Both the position numbers and the translations under genes were made by a program. The notes below the pieces were generated by a model. It had not been told where the DNA came from. It searched no databases and saw nothing but the letters and a program-made list of their open reading frames with translations. Positions 1 through 16,999 of a stretch of 64,000 nucleotides of DNA are shown here, in pieces. Source of the stretch: Escherichia coli (GTDB taxonomy: Bacteria; Pseudomonadota; Gammaproteobacteria; Enterobacterales; Enterobacteriaceae); NCBI RefSeq assembly GCF_030013205.1, contig NZ_CP122648.1; one strand, 5' to 3'. Each line of letters opens with the position of its first letter. The stretch's first letter is position 1.

Positions 1-167
1 ATTTTTCGTGCAACCTGGTCGCCGATAACCTTCTTGCCAAGAGCCCAGCGGTTTACCAGATTTGCCTGAGTTCCAAGTTTTTCAGCCATCCGCGTCTGAA
101 CACCATTGAATTCACGGTCGATCAAGTCGTTGAGATTTTGCCTGCGGACGTCCTGGATACTTTTCAT
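1..167 (-). CDS. CI-like HTH repressor, N-terminal part (gene runs off the window start)
   Basis: Reverse-strand ATG at 165-167 gives MKSIQDVRRQNLNDLIDREFNGVQTRMAEKLGTQANLVNRWALGKKVIGDQVARKI, HTH-like; divergent from a cro-like gene across an operator-rich spacer. Confidence 0.5.
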   Translation of the reverse strand, partial: MKSIQDVRRQNLNDLIDREFNGVQTRMAEKLGTQANLVNRWALGKKVIGDQVARK

Positions 168-918: not shown

Positions 919-1752
919 ATGAGCAGACATGCAACAGATTGGGCCTGGGAGACAGATCCAGGTAGCTCGTCATTAAAGCTCATACTGCTCTCGATGGCTG
1001 ACAGAGCCGATGAATATAACCTCTGCTACCCCAGCATAGAACGCCTCGTTAAAGACACTTGCCTGAATAAAAAAACCGTGCAGGCCGGGCTTATATCGCT
1101 CATGAAAATGGGGCTTATTTCAGATACCGGAGAGAGAAAGGGAGCGACGAAAAGAGTGCGGGTTTTCTCTCTTAATATAACCAAAAACGGGAACATTAAA
1201 GGCAACCGGGAAGGGGGTAATGGACCCGAAAACGGTAATGTTACCGAAAACGGTAATGTTACCGAAAACGGGAATATACCCAAAAACGGGATGTTGAATG
1301 ATCCCAAAAACGGGATGTTGAATGATCCCAAAAACGGGATCCAGAACCAGTCATATAACCAGTCATTTAACCAAGAGAGGGAGAGCAGGACAAAAAGCGG
1401 GGATTCTGTGCCTCATGACCCCGGCGCAAACAACGCCGTGATGAATAACTTTGTTCCTCCTGGTGGGCCAGGGCAATTAGGCAAATTTGTCATGCATGAA
1501 CAATGGCAGCCATCAGATGACTTTCTTCGGAAAAGCTCATTGCAGGGGATCTACCTGGACAGTCTGCCAACGGCACAGGAACTTGCAGAGTTCAGAATTT
1601 ACTGGATGGCTGAGGGTAAGGCATACCATCAGGCACAGTGGGAGCAGAAGCTGGCAAGGCGGCTGCAGATTAGCAGACAGAAGCAATCAACATTACCTGA
1701 TAACAACGTTCCGCACTGGAACAGCCCTGAAGCATGGGAGGATTTCTTGTGA
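919..1752 (+). CDS. Replication initiator, lambda O-like (N-terminal winged-helix, repeat-encoding linker, C-terminal domain)
   Basis: Position directly upstream of and overlapping a clear lambda P homolog; internal direct DNA repeats (iterons) encoding NG-rich repeats. Confidence 0.7.
   Translation: MSRHATDWAWETDPGSSSLKLILLSMADRADEYNLCYPSIERLVKDTCLNKKTVQAGLISLMKMGLISDTGERKGATKRVRVFSLNITKNGNIKGNREGGNGPENGNVTENGNVTENGNIPKNGMLNDPKNGMLNDPKNGIQNQSYNQSFNQERESRTKSGDSVPHDPGANNAVMNNFVPPGGPGQLGKFVMHEQWQPSDDFLRKSSLQGIYLDSLPTAQELAEFRIYWMAEGKAYHQAQWEQKLARRLQISRQKQSTLPDNNVPHWNSPEAWEDFL
1225..1372 (+). repeat. Iteron-like direct repeats inside the O-like gene (candidate phage replication origin)
   Basis: CCGAAAACGGTAATGTTA x2 plus a degenerate third copy, CCCAAAAACGGGATGTTGAATGAT x2 plus degenerate third, then AACCAGTCAT x2; shared core AAAACGG. 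Confidence 0.6.
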
Positions 1753-2534
1753 ACAACGTTTTTACCGCGATACAAAACCGTGACGGAGAAGCCCTTTCTC
1801 GCATGTCAGGTTATGAGCATCAGTACGTCAACAATGACAATGTGGTGAACATGTCAGCAGAGAGGCTTGTTGATGCCCTTTTTAAACAGCTGAAACAACT
1901 GTTTCCGGCGGCAGTGGTAACCAACCTGAAGACGCCAGAGCAGGAAGTTGCTGCAAAACAGCAGTGGATTGCTGCGTTTGCCGAAGGGGGGATCCGAACC
2001 CGTGAACAGGTTTCTGCTGGTATGCGCCACGCCCGCGCCAGTGAGTCTCCGTTCTGGCCGTCGCCAGGGCAATTCATCAAGTGGTGTAAAGACAGCAAGA
2101 TGGTTCTTGGCGTCACCATTGACGATGTGATGGCGGAGTTTCACCGGTACAGCAAGGAAAAAAGTTTATATCCTGGTGGTCCCGAAAGATTCCCGTGGCG
2201 ACATCCGGTTATGTACTGGGTCGTATGTGATACCCGCCGTGCAATGTATCAGCGCCAGCTTAGCGAGATTGAGGTTGAGAAACACGCGCGCAGGCTGCTC
2301 GATGATTGGGCGAAAAAGGTGGCTTCCGGACAGCAGATACCCGATCCGGTGATCAGCATACAGGCAAAGCCAGAGCCCATGAGTACGCCTCCGGACACAG
2401 GGAGAGACGTTTACCATCCACCAGGGCGAAGTTTCGGGTGTATGCCTAACGCCGCCACCCTGGGGGGAATAACACCGGCGCAGTGGCTGATAGAGGAATA
2501 CAGGCGGGGAAAGGCGGCAGGATTTATCAAGTAA
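1734..2534 (+). CDS. Replication protein P-like (DnaB helicase loader)
   Basis: Strong similarity to lambda P as recalled, e.g. QVSAGMRHARASESPFWPSPGQFIKWC versus lambda QVNAGMRVARRQNRPFLPSPGQFVAWC; overlaps the O-like stop. Confidence 0.85.
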   Translation: MGGFLVNNVFTAIQNRDGEALSRMSGYEHQYVNNDNVVNMSAERLVDALFKQLKQLFPAAVVTNLKTPEQEVAAKQQWIAAFAEGGIRTREQVSAGMRHARASESPFWPSPGQFIKWCKDSKMVLGVTIDDVMAEFHRYSKEKSLYPGGPERFPWRHPVMYWVVCDTRRAMYQRQLSEIEVEKHARRLLDDWAKKVASGQQIPDPVISIQAKPEPMSTPPDTGRDVYHPPGRSFGCMPNAATLGGITPAQWLIEEYRRGKAAGFIK

Positions 2535-2651: not shown

Positions 2652-2996
2652 ATGAGAAAACAGATACAGGCTCTTGGTCGACTCAAAACAGGCCAGATGA
2701 ACAAAACAGAATCTGCGTATTGCCAGCACCTTGAGCAGCGTAAACGTGCAGGGGAAATCGCCTGGTATCGATTCGAGGGTATCAAGCTGCGGTTAGCTGA
2801 CAACACGTTCTATACGCCCGATTTTGCTGTGATGCTCGCCACCGGCGAGATGGAACTGCACGAAGTGAAAGGTTTCTGGACCGACGACGCCAGGGTGAAA
2901 ACCAAAGTCGCCGCAGATCAGTATCCGTTCCGAATCATCGGGGTAACGGTTAAGCCAAAGAAAGCAGGTGGTGGCTGGAACATCGAAGAGTTCTGA
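2652..2996 (+). CDS. Phage protein, DUF1064/VRR-NUC-like (possible nuclease fold)
   Basis: 114-aa ORF with conserved pattern E..Y..LE.RKRAGEI.W..FE ... HEVKG...DARVK.K; family assignment from memory. Confidence 0.45.
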   Translation: MRKQIQALGRLKTGQMNKTESAYCQHLEQRKRAGEIAWYRFEGIKLRLADNTFYTPDFAVMLATGEMELHEVKGFWTDDARVKTKVAADQYPFRIIGVTVKPKKAGGGWNIEEF

Positions 2997-3057
2997 ATCG
3001 ACGATCTTTTTAGTTATCAATGTAATCAATAAGTTATGTGGATAAGCGAGGGTAAAG

Positions 3058-3447
3058 ATGGAAAGTAATATCAAAGGGTTAGTTGCCGCCGGGCATGAGA
3101 TGGCTTCGGAACTGAAAGCAGAATGTGGTGCCGTTGATATGCGTAGTGTGGCAAAACTGATCAGCGATTTGGCAACGCAACTGGAAGTGCAACTGGTGCG
3201 TGCTAATGCGCTGGCAGCGGAGAATGCAAAGCTGAAGGATTACCTGGCCCCTATAGGGCTGAAGGTTGAAGGGACTCCAACCACCGACGCTGTCCTGGCT
3301 GAAATTGAACGCAAAGCAATCCGCAAGTTCATTAACAGCATTGAACACATCCTGCGTGACAAGTTATCACCGTATGACACCGAAGAGATGCTTGAGGCTA
3401 TGCGTATTTTTCTGGAAGAACAGGGAGGTGAGCAAAAATGGCAATAA
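3058..3447 (+). CDS. Hypothetical phage protein (nin-like region)
   Basis: 129-aa ORF with coding-like composition in a same-strand tightly packed array. Confidence 0.4.
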   Translation: MESNIKGLVAAGHEMASELKAECGAVDMRSVAKLISDLATQLEVQLVRANALAAENAKLKDYLAPIGLKVEGTPTTDAVLAEIERKAIRKFINSIEHILRDKLSPYDTEEMLEAMRIFLEEQGGEQKWQ

Positions 3448-3755
3448 CAAAGCAACGTGTAGAAGAAATCATATCCCGTATTGAAATGTATGGGCATGGC
3501 GCAGGGTATACAGTCGAAGAGGTTTATGACCTTGCTGTACTGGCGCTGAATTTATCAAATATCGCAAAACTCAAGCGATACGAGCTTGATATGGATGGTT
3601 GTGACTCGTTCGGTCAGGATTGTGGCGCTGACATGACTGAAGATTCTGATGGCGATTATGTCCTGTTTGATGACGTGGTTAAGTTGTTTGAGTTTGATAC
3701 AACCACTCAGAAGTTAGAAAGCACAGCAAAGGAGGCAGCCAGTGAGCGAGATTGA
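3438..3755 (+). CDS. Hypothetical acidic phage protein
   Basis: 105-aa ORF overlapping neighbours by a few nt, typical phage packing. Confidence 0.4.
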   Translation: MAITKQRVEEIISRIEMYGHGAGYTVEEVYDLAVLALNLSNIAKLKRYELDMDGCDSFGQDCGADMTEDSDGDYVLFDDVVKLFEFDTTTQKLESTAKEAASERD

Positions 3756-4317
3756 CTATCAGGCACTGCGTGACAAGGCAGAGAAAGCAACGTGTGGTGA
3801 GTGGTCGATCGAATATGGAGATGGCAGCTTTGATGGTGATGATGCACTAATTCATCGCGAGGCTGCTGGATATATTCCCATTTGCAGAATTGAAGGAGCG
3901 CATCCTGAAAGCGGTTTCGATGAAGATTTCCAAATGGAACAGCAGGCCAATGCTGAATTCATCGCTGCAGCCAATCCGGCTACCGTCTTGGCGCTGCTTG
4001 GCGAGCTGGAAGCAGCAAAAAAGCGCATAGCAGAACTGGAAGCCGAACTCGTAAGCCAAACTTACAAGTTGAACGAGCTATCGGGCAACTCTCCGGTAAC
4101 TCCGGATGGTTGGATAAGCTGTAGTGAGCGAATGCCGGATAGCAAAACAGCCGTTCTTGTTGCCAGGGAGTTTGACAGGAAAGGTGACTGGCGAATGAAA
4201 TGGGCGACTTACATCCCTGGGCATCCTGACGCTAATGATGGGTGGATAATTCCTGGTGCGTCGTGGATACCATCACACTGGATGCAACTACCAGAACCGC
4301 CGCAGGAGGCGAAATGA
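3742..4317 (+). CDS. Ead/Ea22-like phage protein (DUF551-like C-terminus)
   Basis: 191-aa ORF with Trp-rich C-terminal region (WISCSERMPD...WIIPGASWIPSHWMQLPEPP) typical of Ea22/DUF551 proteins. Confidence 0.5.
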   Translation: MSEIDYQALRDKAEKATCGEWSIEYGDGSFDGDDALIHREAAGYIPICRIEGAHPESGFDEDFQMEQQANAEFIAAANPATVLALLGELEAAKKRIAELEAELVSQTYKLNELSGNSPVTPDGWISCSERMPDSKTAVLVAREFDRKGDWRMKWATYIPGHPDANDGWIIPGASWIPSHWMQLPEPPQEAK

Positions 4318-4408
4318 TGGACTATTCACAGTTAAGTGATTTTGAAATTAACAGAAGAGGCGAAATGATGGACTATTCACAGTTAAGTGATTTTGAAATT
4401 AACAGAAT
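4307..4408 (+). repeat. Perfect 51-bp tandem duplication spanning the ea22-like stop and the next gene's start
   Basis: AGGCGAAATGATGGACTATTCACAGTTAAGTGATTTTGAAATTAACAGAAG repeated head-to-tail; encodes GEMMDYSQLSDFEINRR twice. Confidence 0.9.
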
Positions 4409-4718
4409 GGTAGGAGACATAATTTTTAAAGGCCTTTGGGCGTGTAAACCGGAAACATCAGGGAATAACACCAACAAATGGTATTACGGAAATACTGATA
4501 CAACTTTTGAGCCATTAAACCCTTTACCTGACTACTGCAATAATCCATCGGATGCATGGCCTATTATTGTTGATAATAAAATCAGTCTAACCTGCCACCA
4601 CTCTCGCGGTGAGTGGTCAGCAGTTTTTAATGCCGACAACATTTGCTTTCATGCGAATAATCCACTCCGAGCCGCCATGATTGTATTTCTCATGATGCAG
4701 GAAAATCAGAATGGCTAA
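4312..4718 (+). CDS. Hypothetical phage protein (possibly DUF2591-like); N-terminus duplicated by the 51-bp repeat, start could be 4312 or 4363
   Basis: ORF beginning MMDYSQLSDFEIN...; family assignment tentative. Confidence 0.4.
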
Positions 4719-5115
4719 ATCAGCAGCAGAGCGCAAAGCCGCTCAGAGAGCCAGACAAGCTGCATCTGGCGTGCGTAAGCTGGAAATTGTGCTTGATGCT
4801 CAGGAAATTGAAATGCTGGAGCGTAACTGTGCCACGCGTCGCCCCGGGCGTGCGCCTTACGAATTTGGTGAGTATATAGCGTTACTGATCCGCCAGGATG
4901 ATGCACGCGTGCGCGGGCGTATAAAATCGATCAGCAGAAAACGTTGCGGTAAGTGCGGCGAGATAGTTCCTGTGAATTCATGCCCGTGTACCGTACCCAT
5001 TACAAATGGGACAACGGACTTGCTCTGCGTGACTGGCGTTATGTTGTTCGCATTGCAAACATCGATGTCAGCAATCTTTCAGAACCTTCCTCTGCCGCAA
5101 ATATTGCGAAGTTGA
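4711..5115 (+). CDS. Hypothetical basic protein; C-terminal part may be read-through across a deletion junction
   Basis: 134-aa ORF (MAKSAAERKAAQRARQ...) overlapping the next ORF in another frame. Confidence 0.3.
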   Translation: MAKSAAERKAAQRARQAASGVRKLEIVLDAQEIEMLERNCATRRPGRAPYEFGEYIALLIRQDDARVRGRIKSISRKRCGKCGEIVPVNSCPCTVPITNGTTDLLCVTGVMLFALQTSMSAIFQNLPLPQILRS

Positions 5116-5333
5116 TGGTTAAAGCACTGCATCGCATTCCAAATCGTGGCATGGGTCGCCCGGTGTTCTACATGAACCGCACTGTAGGCCAGGCTCTTGA
5201 TCTGCAATCTCTGGAGAAAACATCTCTGGCGATCAGCGTAAAAGAGACAGAAGGCGAGTGGTGGACTTCATTCCGTGGTGTACCAATCCGTGAAACTGAT
5301 GCGCTTCTGGAAACAGAAGCCCGCGTGGTGTAA
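4953..5333 (+). pseudogene. Possible C-terminal remnant of a head (capsid-like) gene left by internal deletion of the packaging/head module
   Basis: ORF begins immediately after an in-frame stop; sequence ...GMGRPVFYMNRTVGQALDLQSLEKT...WWTSFRGVPIRETDALLETEARVV resembles a structural-protein C-terminus; no terminase, portal or scaffold genes upstream. Confidence 0.3.
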
Positions 5334-5384
5334 CGCCTGTTATTAACCTGTGGGTCGTAACAGACCCACTAATGGAGAAAGAAG

Positions 5385-5753
5385 ATGATCACCGACAAAC
5401 TGTTGATGTTCTCCGAAGCTCAGGCGGTTACGAATACCGCGGCTTCTACTGACGTAATCGATCTCGGTCCAATTGACGGAAAACGTCGTGATATCGGCGT
5501 GGGTTACCCGCTTGAGTTTTGGGCGCTGGTTAACACAGCCGCCGCGGCAAGCGGTGATGCAACTGTAAACATCCAGTTGCAGGCGAGTGAGAATAACAGC
5601 TCATGGACCACTATTTATGATAGTGGCGCACTGGCAAAGACCGCCCTGACAGCAGGTAAACGAGTTGTTTCTGCAAAGGTGCCTGCCGGTGTTCAGCGAT
5701 ATCTGCGTGTTAACTACTCCGTCGCAACTGGCCCACCGGGACAATTACGTTAA
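5385..5753 (+). CDS. Small virion protein (possibly capsid decoration/stabilising)
   Basis: 122-aa ORF with good RBS context, first of an uninterrupted same-strand structural array. Confidence 0.4.
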   Translation: MITDKLLMFSEAQAVTNTAASTDVIDLGPIDGKRRDIGVGYPLEFWALVNTAAAASGDATVNIQLQASENNSSWTTIYDSGALAKTALTAGKRVVSAKVPAGVQRYLRVNYSVATGPPGQLR

Positions 5754-5794
5754 CGGCAAGCGCCTCTATTTTTGGCGCGGAGCAGGTAGGCAAA

Positions 5795-6391
5795 TTGTTC
5801 TATCTGGAACAGCCTGCAGTGGATTCTGTGCCGGTAACCAGCAATACCGCTGTAGTGGTTCGTGCCAACAGGAACGTCCCGCCATCCCTCAGGAATACGG
5901 CCACCACGAACTGGCAGATGGCGCGCCGGACATTTGGAGGCCTGTCTCATCTTGAAGGCCAGACCGTAAACATTCTCTCTGATGCGAGCGTGGAACCACA
6001 GAAAGTGGTTTCCGGAGGTGCCGTCACGCTGGAATCTCCGGGGGCTGTAGTGCACATCGGCCTGCCAATAACTGCTGAATTCGAAACACTGGATATCAAC
6101 ATTAACGGACAGGAAACGCTGCTGGACAAAAAACAGGTGATCCCCTCCGTTACTCTGGTTGTGAATGCCAGTCGCGGCATCTGGGCGACTACGCCTGGCG
6201 GTAAATGGTACGAATATCCACAGCGTGAATTCGAGTTCTACGATGATCCTGTTGATGATGCTACCGGAAAAGTAGAAGTGAAACTGGACAGTAACTGGGG
6301 CAAAAACGGACGTGTAAAAATCCGTCAGCTTGATCCGTTGCCGCTGTCTGTTCTTGCCGTTATTCCTCGCCTTACTGTTGGGGGATTTTGA
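5795..6391 (+). CDS. Virion structural protein
   Basis: 198-aa ORF in the structural operon. Confidence 0.45.
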   Translation: MFYLEQPAVDSVPVTSNTAVVVRANRNVPPSLRNTATTNWQMARRTFGGLSHLEGQTVNILSDASVEPQKVVSGGAVTLESPGAVVHIGLPITAEFETLDININGQETLLDKKQVIPSVTLVVNASRGIWATTPGGKWYEYPQREFEFYDDPVDDATGKVEVKLDSNWGKNGRVKIRQLDPLPLSVLAVIPRLTVGGF

Positions 6392-6855
6392 TGATCGACG
6401 TTAAAATTATTCCCGCTACCGAAGAGCATCTTCAGATGATTTTGCCGGATGTTCGTCAGGCTGATATTGACGAACTGTATGCGGTATCGCTGATGACTAC
6501 CGAAGATGCGCTGCGTGTTGGTCTGCGCACTGCGACTATGGCCTGGTCAGGGTTCGCGAACGGAGAACTGGTAACCATGTTTGGTGTATCTCCGGCGTCA
6601 ATGATCGGTGGCAATGGTACGCCTTGGCTGGTAGGAACCAGCCGTATTGAAAAATATCAGAAGACATTTCTTCGCCACTGCCGACCTGTATTGCAGCAGA
6701 TGCTGGCAGTTTATCCGCGCCTGGAAAACTACGTCGACGAGCGAAACCATGTTGCCAAAGCATGGCTGCACTGGCTTGGATTCAGGCTTGAAGAAGCCGC
6801 GCCTTATGGTGCTCTTGGTCTTAATTTCCACAGATTTCACATGGAGAGAAAATAA
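6388..6855 (+). CDS. Virion-associated protein
   Basis: 155-aa ORF, start overlaps upstream stop (ATGA). Confidence 0.45.
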   Translation: MMIDVKIIPATEEHLQMILPDVRQADIDELYAVSLMTTEDALRVGLRTATMAWSGFANGELVTMFGVSPASMIGGNGTPWLVGTSRIEKYQKTFLRHCRPVLQQMLAVYPRLENYVDERNHVAKAWLHWLGFRLEEAAPYGALGLNFHRFHMERK

Positions 6856-7400
6856 TGTGCGATCCGGTTATTGCTGGTGGCGCAATGCTCGCCATGAGTG
6901 GCATTCAGGCATACACCCAGTACCAACAGGGAAAGTATGCCTCGAAGGTTGCAGAAGCGAACGCAGATATAGCCACAGCTCAGGCAAATGATGCAATAAA
7001 CAGAGGTAACGCTGAAGCTGAGCAACGGCGCAGAGAGACGCGACAGCGGCTTGGTACACAGGCGGCGACAATGGGGGCGACCGGCGCTGATTTATCTACC
7101 GGTAACGCGCTGGATATATTTGGTGACACTGCTCAGTTTGGCGCTCTTGATTCGCTGACGACGGTGAATAACGCGCAACGCGAGGCTTACGGTTATCAGG
7201 TTCAGGCTGCCAACTATAAAGCAGAAGCCAGTTCAGCCCGTAAACAGGGGAATGTGGGAGCAGCAACAACATTGCTCACTGCGCCTCTGAAGGCATACGG
7301 TGCGTACCAGATGTTTGGTGGGACGTGGAGTCCGTTTACTCAAAGCACCCCCGCGCCAATCAGGGCAGCAGCAGGAACCAGATTACCCGGAGGATTATAA
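6855..7400 (+). CDS. Internal virion/ejection protein (Ala/Gln-rich)
   Basis: 181-aa ORF; stop overlaps start of the next gene (TAATG). Confidence 0.5.
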   Translation: MCDPVIAGGAMLAMSGIQAYTQYQQGKYASKVAEANADIATAQANDAINRGNAEAEQRRRETRQRLGTQAATMGATGADLSTGNALDIFGDTAQFGALDSLTTVNNAQREAYGYQVQAANYKAEASSARKQGNVGAATTLLTAPLKAYGAYQMFGGTWSPFTQSTPAPIRAAAGTRLPGGL

Positions 7401-10021
7401 TGCCAGTCGTACCAACAGTATCCGGACGTCAGGTTGAGAGCCGTGGAGTTCAGTCAGCAGGCTTGCAGACGTTTTCTCAGCCAGGTATTGGTGATGCTTT
7501 TGTTCGGGCAGGGACAGAGGCAATTGATGTTCTGGGTCAGGCAAAACAGCGCGCCAATATTGCCTTGATTCAGGAGGCATCCCTTAAACTCAGTCAGACA
7601 GGCAGTGATCTGCTGAATAATCCTGAAACAGGATTGCTTAACCTGAAAGGGAAAAATGCTATTGGAAAAGGTCAGGAGTATACGCAGCAGTTTGATGCCC
7701 AGGTCGAGCAACTGGCTATGTTGCTGCCGGATGAACAGGCTCGTAATGCTTTCATGCAGCAGGCGCAGCAGCAGCGCATTCAGTTCACTACGCAGGCCGG
7801 GAGGTACGAAATAGGACAGGTTCGCCAGTATGAGGCGGATATGCAGGATGCGACACTAAAAAACCTATCGATGCAGTTCCGTAACCCGACAATGGCAAAC
7901 CAGGCAGGATTGAAGGCATATCATAGCATCATCGCTTACGGCGAAGCCCACGGCCAGAGTCAGGAAGAGATCGAACAGAACTGGGTTTCGTGGCGCGAGA
8001 ATGCCGCGAACGGTGCGGCGGAGGCGTGGTATGTGCCGATGTATCAACAGATGATGGGTCCGAACGGCAAGATTGAGGTAACCGATACACCGAGTGAGGC
8101 GCAGTTATTCTCTGCAATAATCTGGCAGGAGAGTGGCGGAAATCAGTACGGAAAGGACGGAACACCTCTGGTGTCGCCAAAAGGCGCTGTTGGCGTAGCG
8201 CAGGTGACGGAAGATACTGGCCCCGAAGCTGCCCGCCTTGCTGGCGTGCCGTGGGACCGCGATAAATGGTTGAATGACCCGCGCTATAATGCCCGCTTGG
8301 GGCAAGCTTATTTCGGCGCGCAGATGAAGAAATACGACAATAACCCGGTTCTGGCAGTAGCTGCCTATAACGCTGGCCCAGGAAAGGTTGACGGCTGGAT
8401 TAAACAGATTGGCGACCCGCGCACAGGCGAAGTCAGTAACGCCCAGTTTGCCGCAGCTATCCCATACGACGAGACGCGCAATTATGTGGCAAAAGTAACT
8501 GGCAGTGCTGGAGCTATTCCTGGATCTGCGACGATGGAAAACCTCATCGCACAGCCATTCTGGAACGCCATGAGTCCGGACAAAAAGTCGCAGATGATGA
8601 GCAAGGTTGCTGGCATGTACGACATGCAGGCTTCAGCCGGTCGCGTTGCGCTACAGAGTCGAATGCAGGACGACCTATCCAAAATTGAGGCCGGTAAGCA
8701 GGTGACGCCTATTTCAGCGCACGAATGGGCCGCCGTTATGCCGCTTCAGGCAGCGCCTGCCGAGCGCCTGCAGATGGAAAAAACCTTCCAGCAATACCAG
8801 CAGGCAATGACGCTACAACCTGTTTATCAGACCATTATGCAGGGCAACGTCCAGCAGGGTACCGCCGCCGTGCAGGCAATGGCACCGCAGGAAAACGCCC
8901 CTGACTTTAAATACAAAGCAGAGCTTTATGCATCGGCAAAGGTCAAGCTTGGGCAGGTACTGAAGGCGCGGGAAGCGGATCCGGGGGCATGGCTGCAACA
9001 AAACTCTCCGGTTGTGCAGGCTGCATTCCAGCAGTACCTGAATGACCCTTCATCTGGTGAATACCTAGTTTCCCGCATACAGTCTGAAAAAGACCGCCTG
9101 GGGATAATGAGCAAAAAAGTTTTACCGGAGTCCATGGTCAATGATGTACTGCAGCGTATTGACAACACGCAGGAATCTAGCGTTAAGGCCATTCAGTCGG
9201 TGGCGCAGTCGTTCGGCAAATACTCGGATCAGGTGATGCGGCAGGTGCAAAATAAAGCATTCCCAGCTTTAAAGGTTGTAATGTCTACAGAAAACCAACG
9301 GGCAGCAGATGCGTTGTGGCAAATACGGAATGTACCTACTTCTGATTTGAGATCTGGTTTGGATAAAAACCAGGCAGACAGTGCAGACTCATCGTGGACA
9401 GATCAATTTAAAGATTTTTCTTCAACTCTTATTCCTCAGAGAAATGGTGCTGAAAACTGGACTATTTATAACGAGCAGGGAAAACGCTTGACCTACAACT
9501 ACATGCAGCGCGGAATGTCGGCGTCTGATGCAGCAAAACAGGCGTATCAGGACCTTCTCGGCGAGCAGTACCAGACCAATGGCACTTGGCGGCTACCTAA
9601 TCGTGCAGGGGTAGATATTCGTGACGTTAACGATGGTGCCAATGCGTATCTGAAAAACCTGTCAGCAGATCAGATTATGCCGCTTATTGGTGACCCAAGG
9701 CTACCTGATGAGGTCAACCGTGAGCAGAGTATCTCCCGCATTCGTGATAATGCGCAGTGGGTTACCAACAGCGACGAAACAGGACTTACCCTGATGCTCA
9801 ACGGGCTGATCGTCAACGGTGCCGACGGCAACCCGATTACGGTGACGTTCAACGATCTGGCGAAACTGGGAACAACCAACCGATCAGTATGGAACCGCAT
9901 TACCAAGTTCATTGATACTCCGGTGAAATATACTCCCGGACAGTCTAAGGAATACAGCGCAGAAAGTCAGCGCGACAACCTGATTAACATTTTCCAGAAC
10001 GGCCAGCAATCAGGACGATAA
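7400..10021 (+). CDS. Large internal virion/ejection protein with lytic transglycosylase (SLT) domain
   Basis: SLT signature IIWQESGGNQYGKDG...SPKGAVGVAQV...AAYNAGPGKV; likely start ATG at 7400 after GGAGGA RBS (track ORF starts upstream at 7325). Confidence 0.75.
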   Translation: MPVVPTVSGRQVESRGVQSAGLQTFSQPGIGDAFVRAGTEAIDVLGQAKQRANIALIQEASLKLSQTGSDLLNNPETGLLNLKGKNAIGKGQEYTQQFDAQVEQLAMLLPDEQARNAFMQQAQQQRIQFTTQAGRYEIGQVRQYEADMQDATLKNLSMQFRNPTMANQAGLKAYHSIIAYGEAHGQSQEEIEQNWVSWRENAANGAAEAWYVPMYQQMMGPNGKIEVTDTPSEAQLFSAIIWQESGGNQYGKDGTPLVSPKGAVGVAQVTEDTGPEAARLAGVPWDRDKWLNDPRYNARLGQAYFGAQMKKYDNNPVLAVAAYNAGPGKVDGWIKQIGDPRTGEVSNAQFAAAIPYDETRNYVAKVTGSAGAIPGSATMENLIAQPFWNAMSPDKKSQMMSKVAGMYDMQASAGRVALQSRMQDDLSKIEAGKQVTPISAHEWAAVMPLQAAPAERLQMEKTFQQYQQAMTLQPVYQTIMQGNVQQGTAAVQAMAPQENAPDFKYKAELYASAKVKLGQVLKAREADPGAWLQQNSPVVQAAFQQYLNDPSSGEYLVSRIQSEKDRLGIMSKKVLPESMVNDVLQRIDNTQESSVKAIQSVAQSFGKYSDQVMRQVQNKAFPALKVVMSTENQRAADALWQIRNVPTSDLRSGLDKNQADSADSSWTDQFKDFSSTLIPQRNGAENWTIYNEQGKRLTYNYMQRGMSASDAAKQAYQDLLGEQYQTNGTWRLPNRAGVDIRDVNDGANAYLKNLSADQIMPLIGDPRLPDEVNREQSISRIRDNAQWVTNSDETGLTLMLNGLIVNGADGNPITVTFNDLAKLGTTNRSVWNRITKFIDTPVKYTPGQSKEYSAESQRDNLINIFQNGQQSGR

Positions 10022-10022
10022 C

Positions 10023-11720
10023 ATGCCAATTTACACAGATGATCCGGGACAGGGAATTAACCAGCCAATTGGCAACGCGCCAGCAGGGCTTGGCGAATCG
10101 CTGCTTTCTTCCCTTAAGCAGGGATTTGAAGAGGGGCCGGTCATGTCCGGCTACCGTTTTGCGCAGGCCGACTCGCTGGCGAATGACCCAAACTCTACAG
10201 TTATCAGTAAGCAGGAAGCGGATGAGCTCCTGAAGCAGTACGGCGTAAAGAGCATAAACGTGCCAGATTCTGGCGTTACGCAGGCTTTTCTCGATCATGT
10301 TATTGCCGAACGCAAAGATTCTCTGGCACGCCAGCAGATCGCGATGTCGGCACCGAGCGGGTGGGTAGCCACGCCGCTTAATTTCGCAGCCAGCCTAGCT
10401 GGTTCAATGGCAGATCCTGGTAACGTGGCGCTGGCGCTGGTTCCGTTCGCTGGAGAAGCAAAGGCGGCTTCTGTGCTTGGCCGATTTGGCGAGCGATTTG
10501 TTGCTGGTGCACGCATGGGGGCAGCGCAGGCGTTGGTGACCGTGCCGCTTACCGGGCTGGCAGCGGCGGCGGAAGGTGACGACTTCACCTATAGCAACGC
10601 GTTGGAAAGTACTTTCTTTAACACGATGGCTGGCGGTCTAATGCATGCCGGCGGCGGCCTTATCGCCGATATCGTGCGACCGCGTCGCGTTCCCGATGCT
10701 GCAACGGGAGAGTCCCCGGCGTTTTCTGGCGATGCGCAGCCAACCCCGGTGATAACGCCTGACAACATTCCGGCGGGCGTGAATATCCCTGAGGTTGGCG
10801 CTAACGCAGATCTGGCGGCGGCCATTTCCAGTGAAGCGGAGAGCTACGCATACAGCCGGGCTTATGACGACGTGGTTCCTGACTATATGGCGCGCCAGCA
10901 GGAGTTACAGAGCGGGCAGATCGGTAACGTTGCCGACCTGCGTGCCGAGCTTGCGGCTAATCAACGTCATGCTGACTCGCTTGATGCGACGCTGCAGCAG
11001 CGCACCAAAAAGTATCAGGGGCAGCGGATGAAGTTTAAGGATGCGCGCTCTAGGGCACTGAAAGAGATTCAGGCCGAGAAAGACGCCATCGCTGCACGCA
11101 ATCAGGAGATCAACACATCGCTGGAGCAGAACGCGACAGCAGAGCAGGCGCGCTGGCGCCAGTCTCAGATTTCCCGCGGCGAGATCCCCGACGACCTGAA
11201 AGTCACCATTTCCGAGCGTGCGCAGCAGATCCTGGACGGCATGCAGATGTCTCCGGTCGCTGGCGCAGTTCGCACTGCCGCAAGCGCCATCAGGGATGCT
11301 GACTGGAGCGTGAACCAGCAGGCGTATCGCGCTGCGCTGGCACACATGATGGAAGGACGTATCCCAGATGTTGAGCCCTTCTATGAACTGCACAAACCGG
11401 CACTGCGTGAACGCGCCATCCATCGCATACAGAACCCGGCACGGCAGGTTGATGAAACGGCTCGCCCAGCAAGCGAAACAGCCGATCGGGTTTATCAAGA
11501 AACGCAAAAGGCAGATCATGAAATTACCGCTGCCGCTGCAGACCTTGATAACGAGCTCAACCTGAGTAACGCACTGCTTGACGATATCGCTGTCGATAAC
11601 CCTGATCTTGCGACCACGTTGCGCCAGAAACTCAATGATATTCGTGCCGACGCCAGCGACAATAGCATGAGCAACGCTTTCCGGGCATTTGCCGCCTGTA
11701 TGATTAACCGGGGGATGTGA
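10023..11720 (+). CDS. Internal virion/ejection protein
   Basis: 565-aa ORF directly following the SLT protein. Confidence 0.55.
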   Translation: MPIYTDDPGQGINQPIGNAPAGLGESLLSSLKQGFEEGPVMSGYRFAQADSLANDPNSTVISKQEADELLKQYGVKSINVPDSGVTQAFLDHVIAERKDSLARQQIAMSAPSGWVATPLNFAASLAGSMADPGNVALALVPFAGEAKAASVLGRFGERFVAGARMGAAQALVTVPLTGLAAAAEGDDFTYSNALESTFFNTMAGGLMHAGGGLIADIVRPRRVPDAATGESPAFSGDAQPTPVITPDNIPAGVNIPEVGANADLAAAISSEAESYAYSRAYDDVVPDYMARQQELQSGQIGNVADLRAELAANQRHADSLDATLQQRTKKYQGQRMKFKDARSRALKEIQAEKDAIAARNQEINTSLEQNATAEQARWRQSQISRGEIPDDLKVTISERAQQILDGMQMSPVAGAVRTAASAIRDADWSVNQQAYRAALAHMMEGRIPDVEPFYELHKPALRERAIHRIQNPARQVDETARPASETADRVYQETQKADHEITAAAADLDNELNLSNALLDDIAVDNPDLATTLRQKLNDIRADASDNSMSNAFRAFAACMINRGM

Positions 11721-14269
11721 TGGCAGCAAACGAATTTTTGACGCAGTGCGAGCGCAGTGTAAATGCTGCCGCTGGTCGCGAGCTTTCTTCCGATGAGATG
11801 GAGTCGCTGGTGCGTGACATGAACGACACCACTAGGCGAATTCTGGCGACCAATGAGGCGCTGTCTCTGGAAGAGGCCGCGATGCGCGCAGCGGAAGAAC
11901 TGAGCAATGCCGATATGCTGGCAAAACAGATTGAGGCTCGCAATAAGGCAATCAACACCCGTATTGCCGCACAACGACTTAGAGAGCTTCGTACTATCTG
12001 GAAAGACCGCCCGGATATCGGGCTTGAAGCAATGCTGGTTGGCCGCAACGATGCGCGTACCGGCGCCCGCCGGTCGGTATCTTCGGAGGTGGCGCAACTG
12101 CGCGGCAAGTATCATTCCGGTATCAACTACGATTTTGACCGTGCCGGGCTGGTGCAATTCATCGCCAGCGGCAGCAATGACAGGGAAATTGCCGATGCAA
12201 TGTGGCGCATAGGGCGCGGGCAGTCAACTGACGGTATGACAAAGCAATCCGTAAGCGCTGCACAAATCATCATGAAATGGCAGGAAACTGCGCGCATTGA
12301 TGAGAACCGCGCCGGGGCATGGATACGCAAAGAGCCGGGCTATATAGTGCGCCAGTCACACGACATCATGAAGATCCGCGCCGCAGGTTATGAAGCATGG
12401 CGAAATGCTATTCTCCCGCGCCTTGATGAGCGCACTTTTGACGGCGTGGCTGACCGCGAGCAGTTCATGCGTAACATTTATAACGGGCTGGCTTCCGGCG
12501 TGCATCTTACATCTGAAAAGCCAGATTGGATGAATGGCTTTAAGGGATCGGCGAACGCAGCTAAACGCGCCAGCCAAGAGCGAATTTTGCACTTCAAAGA
12601 TGGTATCTCGTGGCACGAGTACAACCAGCAATTCGGCACCGGCAGCCTGCGAGAGGCGCTGTTTGGTGGCTTAAACAGCGCTGCCCGCACAACGGGCATG
12701 ATGCGCGTACTGGGCACTAACCCACAGAACATGTTTAAGTACCTGACGGACACCATTGCTGAAGATATCAGCAAATCCGGAAGACCGGCAGCGTTGGCTG
12801 ACTACATGACGAAGGTGCGTCGCATTAACCGTACCGTAATGCCGCAGGTTGACGGCTCGCTAAATATTCCTGGCAGCGTAGGCTGGGCCAATGCGTCGGC
12901 GGCTGTACGCGGCTGGTTGCGTATGAGCCAGCTTGGTGGCGCGGTAATCTCATCGTTTAACGACGTGCCTATCGCCGCTACCGAGATGCGCTACCAAGGG
13001 CAGAATTTTATGCAGGCGTTGCTTGGTGCTATGAGAGGCCGCTTCACGCGTTACAACAGCGCGGAGCAGAAAGAGATCCTTTCCTCTATCGGAGTTTATT
13101 CCGACTCCATGACGCAGGAAATCATCCGGCGCATATCTGGTGATGACACGCTGAATGGAAAACTTGGTCGCGCGCAGCAGCTTTTCTTTAAGTACAACCT
13201 CATGAACTTCTGGACCGAGAGCGGTCGTAACAGCAACGCCATGATGATAACCAACTGGCTTGCAAAGAATGCTGACCAGTCTCATGCGCGGCTACCGGAA
13301 GACCTGCGACGCGTGCTGGATCTGCACGGTATTGGCGAACGTGAGTGGGAAATTTTTCGTAACATGGACATGGCCGATAGCGAAGGTCGTAAGTTCATGA
13401 CGACCAGCGGCATGCGCGGCGTGCCTGACGAAGTGATTGCCGGTTATGTAGAGAGTAAGGGGATCAAACCAACGCAGCGCGCTATCGCTGACGCACGCGA
13501 TCAATTGGAAGGGCAGTTGCGCGGCTACATCCTTGACCGCCTGAATATCGCCATGTCAGAGCCTGGCGATCGCACGCAGGCGTTTATGAAGATGGGCACG
13601 GTGCCAGGAACGGTGGCTGGGGAAGCAATACGATTCGCTGGTCAATACAAATCGTTCACTGCAAGCTTCATGCAGAACGTACTAGGACGCGAAGTATTCG
13701 GGCGTGGTTATATTCCTGCTGGGCTTGGTGAGTCGAAAACCGGATCGCTGACGAATGCGCTGCTACGTAACGGGAAGGGGGCTTTCCTTGGTGCTGCAAA
13801 CCTCTTTGTCTGGGCGACTATGTTTGGTTATATCTCCATGCAGTCAAAACTCATGCTGAAAGGGCAAACACCACGCCCGGCAGATGCCAAGACGTTTCTC
13901 GCAGCCGCATCTCAGGGGGGCGGTCTTGGCATCTTGGGTGACTTCATGTTTGGCGAGGTCAACCGCATGGGGGCCGGGCCGGTTACGTCGCTAATGGGGC
14001 CAGCAGCATCGAACGCTGACAGCATTATCACGCTGCTCCAGCAGACCACGAGAGGGGATGCAGATTTGGGTGACTGGTATCGCACGGCACTTGACAATAC
14101 GCCATTCCTCAACGTGTTCTGGCTTCGTACGGCGATGAATGGTTTAATATTGAACCGGATACAAGATGCCCTTGACCCAGGCTCTCTTGAGCGTTATCAG
14201 CGCCGTGTTGAGCGTGAGCAGGGTAACGACTTTTTGATCCCACCATCGCAGTTCATGCTAGGTAAATAA
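11720..14269 (+). CDS. Large internal virion/ejection protein
   Basis: About 849-aa ORF, start overlapping upstream stop (TGATG). Confidence 0.55.
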   Translation: MAANEFLTQCERSVNAAAGRELSSDEMESLVRDMNDTTRRILATNEALSLEEAAMRAAEELSNADMLAKQIEARNKAINTRIAAQRLRELRTIWKDRPDIGLEAMLVGRNDARTGARRSVSSEVAQLRGKYHSGINYDFDRAGLVQFIASGSNDREIADAMWRIGRGQSTDGMTKQSVSAAQIIMKWQETARIDENRAGAWIRKEPGYIVRQSHDIMKIRAAGYEAWRNAILPRLDERTFDGVADREQFMRNIYNGLASGVHLTSEKPDWMNGFKGSANAAKRASQERILHFKDGISWHEYNQQFGTGSLREALFGGLNSAARTTGMMRVLGTNPQNMFKYLTDTIAEDISKSGRPAALADYMTKVRRINRTVMPQVDGSLNIPGSVGWANASAAVRGWLRMSQLGGAVISSFNDVPIAATEMRYQGQNFMQALLGAMRGRFTRYNSAEQKEILSSIGVYSDSMTQEIIRRISGDDTLNGKLGRAQQLFFKYNLMNFWTESGRNSNAMMITNWLAKNADQSHARLPEDLRRVLDLHGIGEREWEIFRNMDMADSEGRKFMTTSGMRGVPDEVIAGYVESKGIKPTQRAIADARDQLEGQLRGYILDRLNIAMSEPGDRTQAFMKMGTVPGTVAGEAIRFAGQYKSFTASFMQNVLGREVFGRGYIPAGLGESKTGSLTNALLRNGKGAFLGAANLFVWATMFGYISMQSKLMLKGQTPRPADAKTFLAAASQGGGLGILGDFMFGEVNRMGAGPVTSLMGPAASNADSIITLLQQTTRGDADLGDWYRTALDNTPFLNVFWLRTAMNGLILNRIQDALDPGSLERYQRRVEREQGNDFLIPPSQFMLGK

Positions 14270-14271
14270 TA

Positions 14272-14832
14272 ATGAAGGCAATTATATTTTTTGTTTCAAT
14301 ATTGATGTCTGCATTTTCTTTTGCAGGGCAAAATGTTAAATGCGAACTTCAATACTTTGGAGATAGCGATAAATTTAAGGTAACTCAGTTTTCTTTTATG
14401 GGGATTCCATCTGATTCATACCTTTATACCTGTGCCGACTGTGGAGGCATCCAGATAAACGTGTTCCCATCTATTCAGACTGTTGCTTCCTACTCATTTG
14501 AAAACAACATTGATTTCGAAAGGAAAATCAATGCTGAATACAACAGAAAAGACATAGCTAAACTTGAGATGGAAAACGTTACTCAAGGCGGGAGAATAAA
14601 ATATTCAATCACCGATACTGGTTTGGCAGAGTTTTACCCAGAGGGCAAAAAGATAAGCTACCTCTACTTTTTAGCCAAGCAACAAAATGGTAAAGAACAA
14701 GTAGGTTATTCAGGATTTGTTACCTCTAACGGGGATAAGTCATGCTCAATTATTGCGACATATCCAGGAAAAGAAATTTCTTTTCTGGGAAGTAAATCTT
14801 TAAGCTACTTTATGAATCATATATCAATGTAG
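14272..14832 (+). CDS. Secreted moron protein with signal peptide, AT-rich codon usage
   Basis: 186-aa ORF starting MKAIIFFVSILMSAFSFA; marked drop in GC relative to flanking virion genes; followed by terminator. Confidence 0.5.
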   Translation: MKAIIFFVSILMSAFSFAGQNVKCELQYFGDSDKFKVTQFSFMGIPSDSYLYTCADCGGIQINVFPSIQTVASYSFENNIDFERKINAEYNRKDIAKLEMENVTQGGRIKYSITDTGLAEFYPEGKKISYLYFLAKQQNGKEQVGYSGFVTSNGDKSCSIIATYPGKEISFLGSKSLSYFMNHISM

Positions 14833-14845
14833 CGTGACATGTCAC

Positions 14846-14870
14846 AGGCCGCTTTCGCGGCCTTGTTTTT
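14846..14870 (+). terminator. Rho-independent terminator ending the virion/moron operon
   Basis: AGGCCGC-TTTC-GCGGCCT stem then TGTTTTT. Confidence 0.6.
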
Positions 14871-15030
14871 AACGAATGCCACCGCCACCCGGGCGGGAAT
14901 CCGCAGAACGCCCACCGCAGCGGGAGCCGTCAGCGGCAGTATCGCTGTCGTGCTGACAACGACCGGCAAAGGCCTGAGTTGAAGCTACCAGAGACAACAA
15001 AACGAACAGTGCAGCAAATGCTTTTTTCAT
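14869..15030 (-). CDS. Possible small secreted protein
   Basis: Internal Met of track ORF gives MKKAFAALFVLLSLVASTQAFAGR... (signal peptide-like); GC-rich, short. Confidence 0.3.
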   Translation of the reverse strand: MKKAFAALFVLLSLVASTQAFAGRCQHDSDTAADGSRCGGRSADSRPGGGGIR

Positions 15031-16199: not shown

Positions 16200-16225
16200 A
16201 TATCCTCCTCATGTAAACACATGGT

Positions 16226-16306: not shown

Positions 16307-16999
16307 TCAGAAGAACCCTGCCTTGTCGTTGATGTACTCCGCGTGCGTCTGGATATCACGCAGGCATTTGCTCACACCGACGATGTAGCAGAACATGGTG
16401 GTCAACTCCGCCGCCGCGCCCGATACGTCGTGCCCGTCTTCCTGTAACTGGTTCAGCAGATTCATCAGCAGTGAGTTCTCCGTCAGGCCGAGAACACCAG
16501 ACGGAGAATGAATCAGGCTGCGGTAGCCGGGCTTCAGCGGGGCACTGTAGGTTTTGTTCTCTATCTTCATTGCCTGCATCACTGCTGATGCTGTGGCGTT
16601 GGCTACCTGGTCGGCAACCATCTTTATGCGTTCTTCCTGCGGGAGCGAGTTTTTAATGTAACTTCCGGTGCGGCGGATCTGAGGAAGAACCTCACCTGTA
16701 ACCCATTCAAGAAATCTGAATGCTCTCGTTCCCTCAGTCATTGCCTCTTTGCAACGCAGAATAAGGATGTAGAGACCTGATTCTGAAACGATGGATAGTT
16801 CTTGTATTCCACCAGGGGTCTGTATTGAATACAGCCCCTTTTTGTTCCAGCCTTTTTTATCAAGTTTTCTCGCTTGTGTAACATCAATATTCAAAGCATT
16901 GCACACATCTTTGGTGACAAACCAAGGTTCTCCGTCAATCATGAACATACGGATCTGGCAGGATGACTCAAAGGAAAAGATGGAAGGTTTGGTATTCAT
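16307..16999 (-). CDS. Antirepressor-like protein, N-terminal Bro-N domain plus C-terminal Ant-type domain
   Basis: MNTKPSIFSFESSCQIRMFMIDGEPWFVTKDVCNAL...SESGLYILI matches Bro-N pattern; start taken at internal ATG (track ORF begins at 17044). Confidence 0.7.
   Translation of the reverse strand: MNTKPSIFSFESSCQIRMFMIDGEPWFVTKDVCNALNIDVTQARKLDKKGWNKKGLYSIQTPGGIQELSIVSESGLYILILRCKEAMTEGTRAFRFLEWVTGEVLPQIRRTGSYIKNSLPQEERIKMVADQVANATASAVMQAMKIENKTYSAPLKPGYRSLIHSPSGVLGLTENSLLMNLLNQLQEDGHDVSGAAAELTTMFCYIVGVSKCLRDIQTHAEYINDKAGFF

What the first reader, a model, noticed from the sequence alone, without database searches (positions are those of the whole stretch)
4700..5400. Prophage lacks terminase, portal, scaffold and most of the capsid gene: an internal deletion joins the nin-like region to the virion operon
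Replication and nin-like genes (up to about 4718) are followed within about 250 bp by a short ORF resembling the C-terminus of a head protein and then by an intact-looking array of virion/ejection genes, tailspike and lysis genes. No packaging genes, no late activator and no integrase are present in this window. The element is therefore probably unable to produce particles but retains immunity, ejection-protein, tailspike and lysis functions.
Basis: inference. Interest (0 to 1): 0.5.

Follow-up and report, generated by a model that had tools for sequence, protein, structure and literature searches.

The report
Deletion-crippled phiV10-like prophage at guaA
This is an ordinary decaying prophage: a phiV10/epsilon15-type phage integrated next to guaA in a pig E. 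coli strain has lost about 10 kb of head, packaging and tail genes through three simple deletions, so it almost certainly cannot make virus particles.

Summary
The window matches E. coli ETEC4079 (3 differences in 64 kb). It holds most of a 29.2-kb Uetakevirus (phiV10/epsilon15-like) prophage bounded by the known 17-bp att core at guaA.

At window 4989/4990 a putative regulator gene, cut after codon 93, is joined to codon 215 of the major capsid gene. Against the 100%-identical prophage of sister strain ETEC4067, 6,802 bp are missing. These carry terS, terL, tRNA-Arg, portal, protease and two thirds of the capsid gene.

- 1,937 bp at 5734-5736 removes the cement 3' end, the staple and the tail gp11/gp12 start.
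- 1,290 bp at 5834-5836 lies inside tail gp12.

So the virion array is not intact at its start. All junctions carry only 2-3 bp of microhomology.

The 1,937-bp deletion is shared by six Belgian pig ETEC genomes. The other two are private to this strain among 5,426 complete genomes. Siblings carry their own further deletions, which shows stepwise erosion.

The integrase is intact 4.3 kb left of the window. Repressor, ejection-protein, tailspike and lysis genes look intact. RefSeq already flags the fragments as pseudogenes. This is ordinary and of low interest.

The parts
1..167 (-). 5' end (first ~55 codons) of the prophage repressor gene; the rest lies left of the window
   Evidence: WP_000836290.1, L001 16084-16668. 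The protein is 194/194 identical to phiV10p40.
919..2534 (+). Replication genes: DnaT-like (919-1752) and lambda-P-like (1749-2534)
   Evidence: RefSeq annotation. 97% DNA identity to phiV10 and IHE3034 prophage.
2652..4718 (+). nin-like region: DUF1064, two hypotheticals, Ea22-like, NinX (4317-4718). Includes a 51-bp perfect tandem duplication at 4306-4407.
4711..4989 (+). Truncated putative transcriptional regulator (phiV10p55 / epsilon15 gp49 homologue). Codons 1-93 of 112 remain. The ORF runs on out of frame into capsid DNA to 5115.
   Evidence: PHROG 536 residues 1-94 of profile 2-97/115. The intact sibling protein matches 2-114/115. Translations. PGAP: 'missing C-terminus'.
4989..4990 (.). 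Junction J1: 6,802-bp deletion with 2-bp microhomology (TA). Private to this strain.
   Evidence: Found in 1 of 5,426 complete E. coli genomes. The 37-mer across it is absent from metagenome and viral contigs.
4991..5333 (+). Major capsid gene remnant (last 114 of 328 codons), with no start codon of its own
   Evidence: NCBIfam NF045672 MCP_gp7_epsi_15, positions 201-309/309. PHROG 212. PGAP: 'missing N-terminus'.
5385..5736 (+). Bbp16-family capsid cement gene remnant (first 117 of 145 codons)
   Evidence: PHROG 427 positions 1-120/142, against 1-141/142 for the intact gene. PGAP pseudogene.
5734..5736 (.). Junction J2: 1,937-bp deletion with 3-bp microhomology (CAC). The oldest event, shared by six Belgian pig ETEC genomes.
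   Evidence: Prevalence.
5737..5836 (+). 100-nt internal fragment of the gp12-like tail protein gene (about codons 176-209)
   Evidence: blastn to IHE3034 18683-18785 and phiV10 9587-9689.
5834..5836 (.). Junction J3: 1,290-bp deletion (430 codons, in frame) inside the tail protein gene, with 3-bp microhomology (GTA). Private to this strain.
   Evidence: Prevalence.
5837..6391 (+). 3' end (last 185 of 823 codons) of the gp12-like tail protein gene
   Evidence: PHROG 15566 positions 363-552/552 and PHROG 376 positions 556-712/712. PGAP: 'missing N-terminus'.
6391..14832 (+). Full-length internal-virion/ejection and virion structural genes: 6391-6855, 6855-7400 (T7 gp14 family), 7400-10021 (SLT transglycosylase), 10023-11720, 11720-14269, 14272-14832
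   Evidence: End-to-end PHROG matches. Same lengths as in the siblings.
16307..16999 (-). BRO-N antirepressor gene
18598..20967 (+). Tailspike gene (789 aa), with a conserved Uetakevirus N-terminal domain
   Evidence: PHROG 1640 and many tailspike/tail-fibre families over residues 1-220.
21454..23251 (+). Lysis cassette: two holin-family genes, GH19 endolysin, spanin (DUF2514)
23362..23378 (.). attR core ATTGAGTGGGAATGATT. The attL copy overlaps the guaA stop codon, 5.8 kb left of the window.
   Evidence: The same 17-mer is reported as the attP core of ZX5, phiV10 and epsilon15 (PMC9782041).

Best explanation
The region is part of a Uetakevirus (phiV10/epsilon15-like) prophage integrated at the 3' end of guaA. 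It is being eroded by successive RecA-independent, microhomology-mediated ('illegitimate') deletions.

Shown: three junctions lie in the window.
- J1 (4989/4990) removes 6,802 bp.
- J2 (5734-5736) removes 1,937 bp.
- J3 (5834-5836) removes 1,290 bp.

Each junction is flanked by sequence 100% identical to undeleted sibling prophages. Each has only 2-3 bp of shared sequence at the breakpoints.

The order of events is inferred from their distribution among strains. J2 came first, in the common ancestor of six Belgian pig ETEC isolates, and already removed the capsid staple and the tail gp11/gp12 genes. J1 and J3 followed in the ETEC4079 line. ETEC1748 independently lost 1,708 bp (a portal-protease fusion). 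The ETEC4067 group lost 1,234 bp of the nin region.

Consequences are inferred from gene content. No terminase, portal, protease/scaffold, capsid, staple or tail hub remains, so no particles and no specific packaging are possible. Repressor, antirepressor, integrase, both att cores, replication genes and the lysis cassette are intact. The element should therefore still confer phiV10-type immunity, and could still excise, replicate and lyse the cell if derepressed.

J1 also removed the terminator-like hairpin between the early-right operon and terS, and cut the last 19 codons off the putative regulator. Any remaining late-gene expression would then depend on read-through from the early-right promoter. 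This last point is inference only.
For: Identity and limits:
- The window is 99.99% identical to NZ_CP122643.1.
- The att cores lie 29,161 bp apart and match the published attP core. Intact relatives are 39.1-39.6 kb, and 29.2 + 10.0 kb accounts for the difference.
- Integrase is 414/416 identical and repressor 194/194 identical to phiV10.

Junction mapping:
- Mapped against ETEC1748, ETEC4067, IHE3034, phiV10 and TL-2011b.

Content of the lost DNA:
- (terS, terL, tRNA-Arg(TCT), portal, protease, capsid, cement, staple, tail proteins).

Prevalence among 5,426 complete genomes:
- J1 in 1 genome, J3 in 1 genome (two other genomes cover that query in 2 pieces over 448 bp, apparently a different deletion of their own), J2 in 6 genomes.
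- Siblings keep the packaging region at 100% identity.

Near-clonality:
- 3 substitutions plus 1-3 homopolymer indels in 46-49 kb of prophage right end plus flanking chromosome.

Other support:
- PGAP independently marks the four fragments as partial pseudogenes.
- The terminator-like hairpin at L006 9295-9312 lies inside the J1 deletion.
Against: - J1 and J3 are seen in one assembly lineage only, and raw reads could not be examined. An assembly error or a subpopulation variant is not formally excluded.
- Inability to make particles, retained immunity and retained lysis are all inferred from gene content, not tested.
- Whether a compatible helper phage elsewhere in the genome could supply structural proteins was checked only indirectly. 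There is just one place in the ETEC4079 chromosome for the capsid, cement and tail probes.
- The order of events rests on six genomes without a whole-genome phylogeny.
Confidence: 0.9

Rival explanations
1. Assembly artefact. The deletions J1 and J3 are not in the bacterium's DNA but arise from mis-assembly or from a minority variant in the sequenced culture.
For: J1 and J3 occur in only one of 5,426 complete genomes and in no metagenome or viral contig. The window and its siblings differ at homopolymer runs, which is typical of long-read consensus error.
Against: Assemblers collapse repeats, yet the breakpoints share only 2-3 bp, and the flanks are unique and 100% identical to the siblings. 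The window is not byte-identical to the RefSeq record (3 differences) yet carries the same three junctions. This suggests a second consensus of the same structure. J2, of the same type, is reproduced in six independent assemblies.
Confidence: 0.04
2. Selected, not neutral, loss ('domestication'). The deletions were favoured because they remove costly or harmful late functions. For example, J1 may disable the putative late regulator and so prevent lethal late/lysis expression, while useful genes are kept (immunity, tailspike, ejection proteins, lysis cassette).
For: Five independent deletions fall in one prophage among near-clonal strains, four of them in head/tail genes (the fifth in the nin region). 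By contrast there is no structural change larger than 1 bp in about 40 kb of flanking chromosome. J1 cuts the putative regulator and removes the early/late terminator. Retained genes are full length. Reviews argue that grounded prophages are deletion-prone and can be selected (PMC6379469).
Against: Once J2 had abolished virion formation, all head/tail genes became neutral targets, whereas kilobase deletions in the core chromosome are purged. The contrast is therefore expected without selection. The lysis cassette, integrase and replication genes, which are the functions dangerous to the host, are all still intact. The retained genes differ from the siblings by 0-2 substitutions, too few to show purifying selection. 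The regulator has no Pfam, NCBIfam or PDB relative, so its role is unknown.
Confidence: 0.1
3. A satellite-like or mosaic element that never carried its own packaging genes and relies on a helper phage for capsids.
For: It keeps integrase, immunity, replication and att sites while lacking head and packaging genes.
Against: Every junction leaves a truncated gene fragment. The missing DNA is present, with 100% identical flanks, in sibling strains at the same locus. No capsid-redirecting or alternative small-terminase gene is present. The likely pac region (terS) is deleted.
Confidence: 0.01

Closest known systems
Escherichia phage phiV10 (Uetakevirus phiV10, NC_007804.2) and relatives ZX5, TL-2011b and epsilon15
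   Same: Same attP/attB core at the guaA 3' end. Integrase is 99.5% and repressor 100% identical. Gene order is the same, with 87-100% DNA identity across replication, capsid-remnant, tail, ejection-protein and lysis genes.
   Different: It lacks 10.0 kb: the regulator 3' end, terS, terL, portal, gp5-like, protease, capsid codons 1-214, the cement 3' end, gp9-like, staple gp10, gp11-like and 77% of gp12-like. It has a different tailspike receptor-binding part and moron set, and no O-acetyltransferase gene after the tailspike.
guaA prophage of sister strains ETEC4067/4069/4070/4071 and ETEC1748 (NZ_CP122685.1, NZ_CP122719.1 and others)
   Same: Same locus, 99.97-100% identical DNA and the same J2 deletion. 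They are therefore also defective.
   Different: They still carry terS, terL, tRNA-Arg, portal (truncated in ETEC1748) and an intact capsid gene. They lack J1 and J3. The ETEC4067 group has its own 1,234-bp nin deletion and lacks the 51-bp NinX duplication.
Classical cryptic or 'grounded' prophages of E. coli K-12 (DLP12, Rac, Qin, e14, CP4-57). Own knowledge, plus the review PMC6379469.
   Same: Prophages that have lost morphogenesis genes by deletion while keeping some regulatory, recombination and lysis genes.
   Different: Those are old, heavily reduced and mostly fixed in the lineage. This one is very recent: its deletions are polymorphic among near-clonal isolates. It still has both att sites, integrase, a full replication module and a lysis cassette.

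Membership tests
Uetakevirus (phiV10/epsilon15-like) temperate podovirus prophage | Integration at the 3' end of guaA through the 17-bp core ATTGAGTGGGAATGATT | tested here: met
   Exact core at L001 10718 (overlapping the guaA stop) and at 39862 = window 23362. The published attP core is given in PMC9782041.
Uetakevirus (phiV10/epsilon15-like) temperate podovirus prophage | P4-type tyrosine integrase and repressor of the phiV10 type | tested here: met
   Integrase 414/416 and repressor 194/194 identical to phiV10.
Uetakevirus (phiV10/epsilon15-like) temperate podovirus prophage | Collinear genome with high nucleotide identity to type members | tested here: met
   Collinear blastn blocks at 87-100% identity to phiV10, and at 89-99% to TL-2011b apart from one inverted 253-bp repeat hit. 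The blocks are interrupted only at J1-J3 and in the variable moron/tailspike regions.
Uetakevirus (phiV10/epsilon15-like) temperate podovirus prophage | Epsilon15-gp7-type major capsid protein (NCBIfam NF045672) | tested here: inconclusive
   Only the C-terminal third is present (profile 201-309/309, 110 bits). The family assignment is clear but the gene is a fragment.
Functional (inducible, particle-forming) prophage | Complete set of terminase, portal, protease/scaffold, capsid and tail hub genes | tested here: not met
   All are absent or truncated within the att-bounded element.
Defective (cryptic) prophage | Prophage of recognisable ancestry lacking genes essential for virion production | tested here: met
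Defective (cryptic) prophage | No infectious particles after induction | not testable with these tools
   Needs mitomycin C induction, plaque assay and electron microscopy.
Phage satellite (P4-like, PICI, cf-PICI) | Compact element that by design lacks structural genes and carries helper-exploitation genes, with no remnants of its own head genes | tested here: not met
   Truncated capsid, cement and tail gene fragments lie at the junctions. The missing DNA is present in clonal siblings.

The most novel reading that the evidence does not exclude
The erosion may not be purely neutral. In a near-clonal set of pig ETEC isolates this one prophage has undergone at least five independent kilobase deletions. 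Four removed head/neck genes and one removed nin genes. Immunity, integrase, ejection-protein, tailspike and lysis genes stayed intact throughout. J1 both truncates the only candidate late regulator and fuses the early-right operon to the remaining late genes. This could be domestication caught in progress: selection against late-gene cost or lethality, or for a rewired lysis/tailspike module. It could instead reflect an elevated deletion rate caused by abortive in-situ replication or by the prophage's own RecET.
Probability: 0.1. Interest if true: 0.4.

Novelty: already known. Interest (0 to 1): 0.12.

Why it matters
It matters little beyond correct annotation. The element should be scored as a defective Uetakevirus prophage, not as an inducible phage, in any prophage or transduction-risk assessment of these ETEC strains.

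Its only wider value is as a dated example of prophage decay. Six near-identical genomes carry five different deletion states of one prophage, all with 2-4 bp microhomology. That could serve as a small natural data set on the rate, mechanism and order of prophage decay.

Tried and rejected
- Phage loci fetched by accession (L002, L003) were not visible to scripts at first. I used E. coli genome loci as references instead and repeated the mapping with the phages later.
- The regulator cut by J1 has no significant Pfam domain (best hit DUF4457, E 0.038), no NCBIfam family and no PDB relative. The ZX5 paper gives no data on late control. Its role as a 'late activator' stays open, and I did not spend large database searches or structure prediction on it.
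- PADLOC found no defence-system match for the moron-region or nin ORFs.
- A literature search for the strain name found nothing.
- Exact-match scans for the J1 37-mer in metagenome and viral contigs found nothing.
- The consensus promoter/terminator scan around the junctions was at background level (7 promoter-like sites against 4.2 ± 2.2 expected; 6 terminator-like against 3.3 ± 2.0). I used it only to note the loss of the hairpin upstream of terS.
- The satellite and mosaic-phage readings were rejected because every junction leaves a gene fragment and the siblings hold the missing DNA.
- I considered longer homology, IS elements or repeats at the breakpoints. None are present.

Full report
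**Source and element**

The window matches the chromosome of porcine E. coli strain ETEC4079 (NZ_CP122643.1, Belgium, pig faeces). The finding region is 100% identical. The whole 64 kb differs at three sites only: a substitution at 7247 and two homopolymer lengths at 15109 and 40495.

The first 23.4 kb of the window is the right-hand four fifths of a prophage inserted between guaA and yfgI. The prophage is bounded by two copies of the 17-mer ATTGAGTGGGAATGATT. One overlaps the guaA stop codon, 5.8 kb left of the window. The other lies at window 23362-23378. The same 17-mer is published as the attP core of phages ZX5, phiV10 and epsilon15 (PMC9782041).

The integrase is 414/416 identical to phiV10 integrase. 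It lies 4.3 kb left of the window start. The repressor, whose 5' end is window 1-167 on the minus strand, is 194/194 identical to phiV10p40. DNA collinearity with phiV10, TL-2011b and many E. coli prophages places the element in the genus Uetakevirus.

The att-bounded element is 29,161 bp. Intact members are 39.1-39.6 kb.

**Check of the observation**

NinX ends at 4718. The overlapping ORF that starts at 4711 matches PHROG 536 ('transcriptional regulator', the phiV10p55 / epsilon15 gp49 homologue) only over residues 1-94. The intact 112-residue sibling protein matches the whole profile.

After codon 93 (...NSCPC) the ORF continues out of frame in capsid DNA. From 4991 to 5333 the sequence encodes the last 114 residues of an epsilon15-gp7-type major capsid protein. 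This matches NCBIfam equivalog NF045672 at positions 201-309 of 309, with 110.5 bits against a cut-off of 75.

NCBI's pipeline has already marked four consecutive fragments as partial pseudogenes:
- 4711-4989
- 4989-5333
- 5385-5735
- 5822-6391

**Mapping the deletions**

I aligned the window to these references:
- the same prophage in sister strains ETEC1748 and ETEC4067;
- an intact relative in strain IHE3034;
- phiV10 and TL-2011b.

The window holds three junctions, not one.

| Junction | Window position | Deleted | Microhomology | Reference |
|---|---|---|---|---|
| J1 | 4989/4990 | 6,802 bp | TA | ETEC4067, L006 9001-15802 |
| J2 | 5734-5736 | 1,937 bp | CAC | IHE3034, L005 16749-18685 |
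| J3 | 5834-5836 | 1,290 bp | GTA | inside the gp12-like tail gene |

J1 removes the following:
- the last 19 codons of the regulator;
- a small hypothetical gene;
- terS and terL;
- a tRNA-Arg(TCT);
- another small gene;
- portal, the gp5-like gene and the protease;
- capsid codons 1-214.

J2 removes the cement gene 3' end, the gp9-like gene, the gp10 capsid staple, the gp11-like tail gene and the first ~175 codons of the gp12-like tail gene.

J3 removes exactly 430 codons of the gp12-like tail gene, in frame. Only a 100-nt internal piece (5737-5836) and the last 185 codons (5837-6391) remain.

There are no repeats, IS elements or longer homologies at any breakpoint.

The three losses sum to 10,029 bp. 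This accounts for the difference between 29.2 kb and a normal ~39.2-kb genome.

From 6391 onward the genes give end-to-end family matches and have the same lengths as in the siblings. These are:
- internal virion / ejection proteins;
- the T7-gp14-family core protein;
- the SLT transglycosylase and two large virion proteins;
- the antirepressor;
- the 789-residue tailspike;
- two holins, the GH19 endolysin and the spanin.

**History**

Junction-spanning queries against 5,426 complete E. coli genomes give these counts:
- J1 occurs in one genome.
- J3 occurs in one genome. Two other genomes cover that query in two pieces spanning 448 bp, apparently a different deletion of their own.
- J2 occurs in six genomes, all Belgian pig ETEC: 1748, 4067, 4069, 4070, 4071 and 4079.

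The DNA lost at J1 is present at 100% identity in the five siblings.

ETEC1748 has its own 1,708-bp deletion that fuses portal to protease. The ETEC4067 group has its own 1,234-bp deletion in the nin region, with 4-bp microhomology. That group also lacks the 51-bp tandem duplication which ETEC4079 and ETEC1748 share in NinX.

Outside these events the strains are almost identical. They show 3 substitutions and 1-3 homopolymer differences in 46-49 kb of prophage right end plus flanking chromosome, and no structural change there.

The simplest reading is this. J2 crippled the prophage in the common ancestor. Separate lines then lost further, now useless, morphogenesis DNA. About 520-630 of the 5,426 genomes carry relatives of these capsid and tail genes. 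Some other lineages show independent deletions in the same area, for example O6:H16 strains. Decayed copies of this phage type appear to be common.

**Mechanism and consequences**

Kilobase deletions with 2-4 bp of microhomology are the signature of RecA-independent illegitimate recombination. Candidate routes are replication slippage or misalignment, or microhomology-mediated end joining. This is established knowledge and was not tested here.

Particle formation and specific packaging should be impossible, because terminase, portal, protease, capsid, staple and tail hub genes are absent or cut. This is inferred from gene content.

The following remain intact: repressor, antirepressor, integrase, AlpA-type gene, both att cores, RecET, replication genes and the lysis cassette. 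The element should still give phiV10-type immunity. If derepressed, it may excise, replicate and lyse without yielding progeny. This too is inferred.

J1 also removed a strong terminator-like hairpin just upstream of terS (L006 9295-9312), together with the intergenic region. The early-right operon now abuts the remnants of the late operon.

Whether the truncated regulator is needed for late transcription is unknown. It has no significant Pfam match, no NCBIfam match and no PDB relative. The one experimental paper on a close relative says nothing about late control.

**Rivals**

- **Assembly artefact.** This is unlikely. There is nothing repetitive to collapse. The same kind of junction (J2) is reproduced in six assemblies. 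The window is a slightly different consensus from the RefSeq record, yet it has the same junctions. Raw reads could not be checked.
- **Satellite or mosaic origin.** This is excluded by the gene fragments at each junction and by the siblings that still hold the missing DNA.
- **Selection rather than neutral decay.** This cannot be excluded. Five independent deletions fall in one prophage, against none in the flanking chromosome. But that contrast is expected once the genes are useless, and the host-lethal functions (lysis, replication, excision) are all retained. This agrees with the general picture of deletion-prone grounded prophages (PMC6379469).

**Comparison with known elements and verdict**

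This is a known phage type at its known attachment site, inactivated in a well-known way. It is already flagged as pseudogenes in the public annotation.

It needs these amendments:
- two further deletions lie just downstream;
- the prophage already had an older defect (J2);
- the integrase lies just outside the window;
- the left breakpoint lies in a putative regulator gene.

Nothing here is new in kind. The only modest point of interest is the snapshot of stepwise erosion among near-clonal isolates.

Noticed in passing
window 4306-4407: A perfect 51-bp tandem duplication (2.0 copies, 100% match) lies at the start of the NinX gene. It duplicates the ribosome-binding site, the start codon and the first codons. 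ETEC1748 shares it and ETEC4067 lacks it, so it marks the ETEC4079/1748 sub-lineage.
   Followed up: partly
window 1216-1373: In-frame tandem repeats sit inside the DnaT-like replication gene: 18 bp x4.1, 24 bp x2.6 (100% match) and 12 bp x2.4. The gene is 24 bp shorter in sibling ETEC4067 (810 bp against 834 bp), consistent with a change of one 24-bp repeat unit, though the indel was not located.
   Followed up: partly
L004 11023-11035 (ETEC1748) and L006 8089-8092 (ETEC4067); window 2798-4031: The sibling strains carry their own private deletions in the same prophage. ETEC1748 has lost 1,708 bp, fusing the portal N-terminus to the protease C-terminus across an 11/14 imperfect homology patch. 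The ETEC4067 group has lost 1,234 bp of the nin region (DUF1064 to Ea22-like) with TAGC microhomology.
   Followed up: yes
L006 11749-11825 (absent from the window): The intact form of the prophage carries a tRNA-Arg (anticodon TCT, rare AGA codon) between terL and portal. J1 removed it from this strain.
   Followed up: partly
window ~24422-25119, ~26170-28420, ~48900-50350, ~57500-57960: The chromosome to the right of the prophage has four disruptions. An IS1 splits the glycine-zipper gene next to yfgI. pdeF is frameshifted. hyfD has an internal stop. An IS200C sits between bamC and purC. All four are shared with the sibling strains.
   Followed up: no
window 14840-18600: A variable 'moron' region lies between the virion genes and the tailspike, with GC down to 38%. 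It holds minus-strand genes of unknown function (PHROG 3630, 5739), a BRO-N antirepressor, and a 242-residue ORF (17395-18123). The C-terminus of that ORF weakly resembles EndoVII/Lar-like zinc motifs. There are no PADLOC defence hits.
   Followed up: partly
window 7247, 15109, 40495: The window is not byte-identical to RefSeq NZ_CP122643.1. It has one substitution (G against A, synonymous by protein accession) and two homopolymer-length differences. It is probably another consensus or isolate of the same clone.
   Followed up: yes
one search hits H69-H76; one search hits H104-H105: Other E. coli lineages (O6:H16 ETEC strains; strains XPFI_3_2 and YJR) show their own different deletions in the same cement-to-tail-gene region of related prophages. 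Decay of this module appears to be recurrent.
   Followed up: no
summary: The 5.1-kb packaging segment also matches 288 places on E. coli plasmids, and 311 records overall have a best match in the 80-90% identity band. This may reflect P1-like phage-plasmids that share the PacB-type terminase.
   Followed up: no
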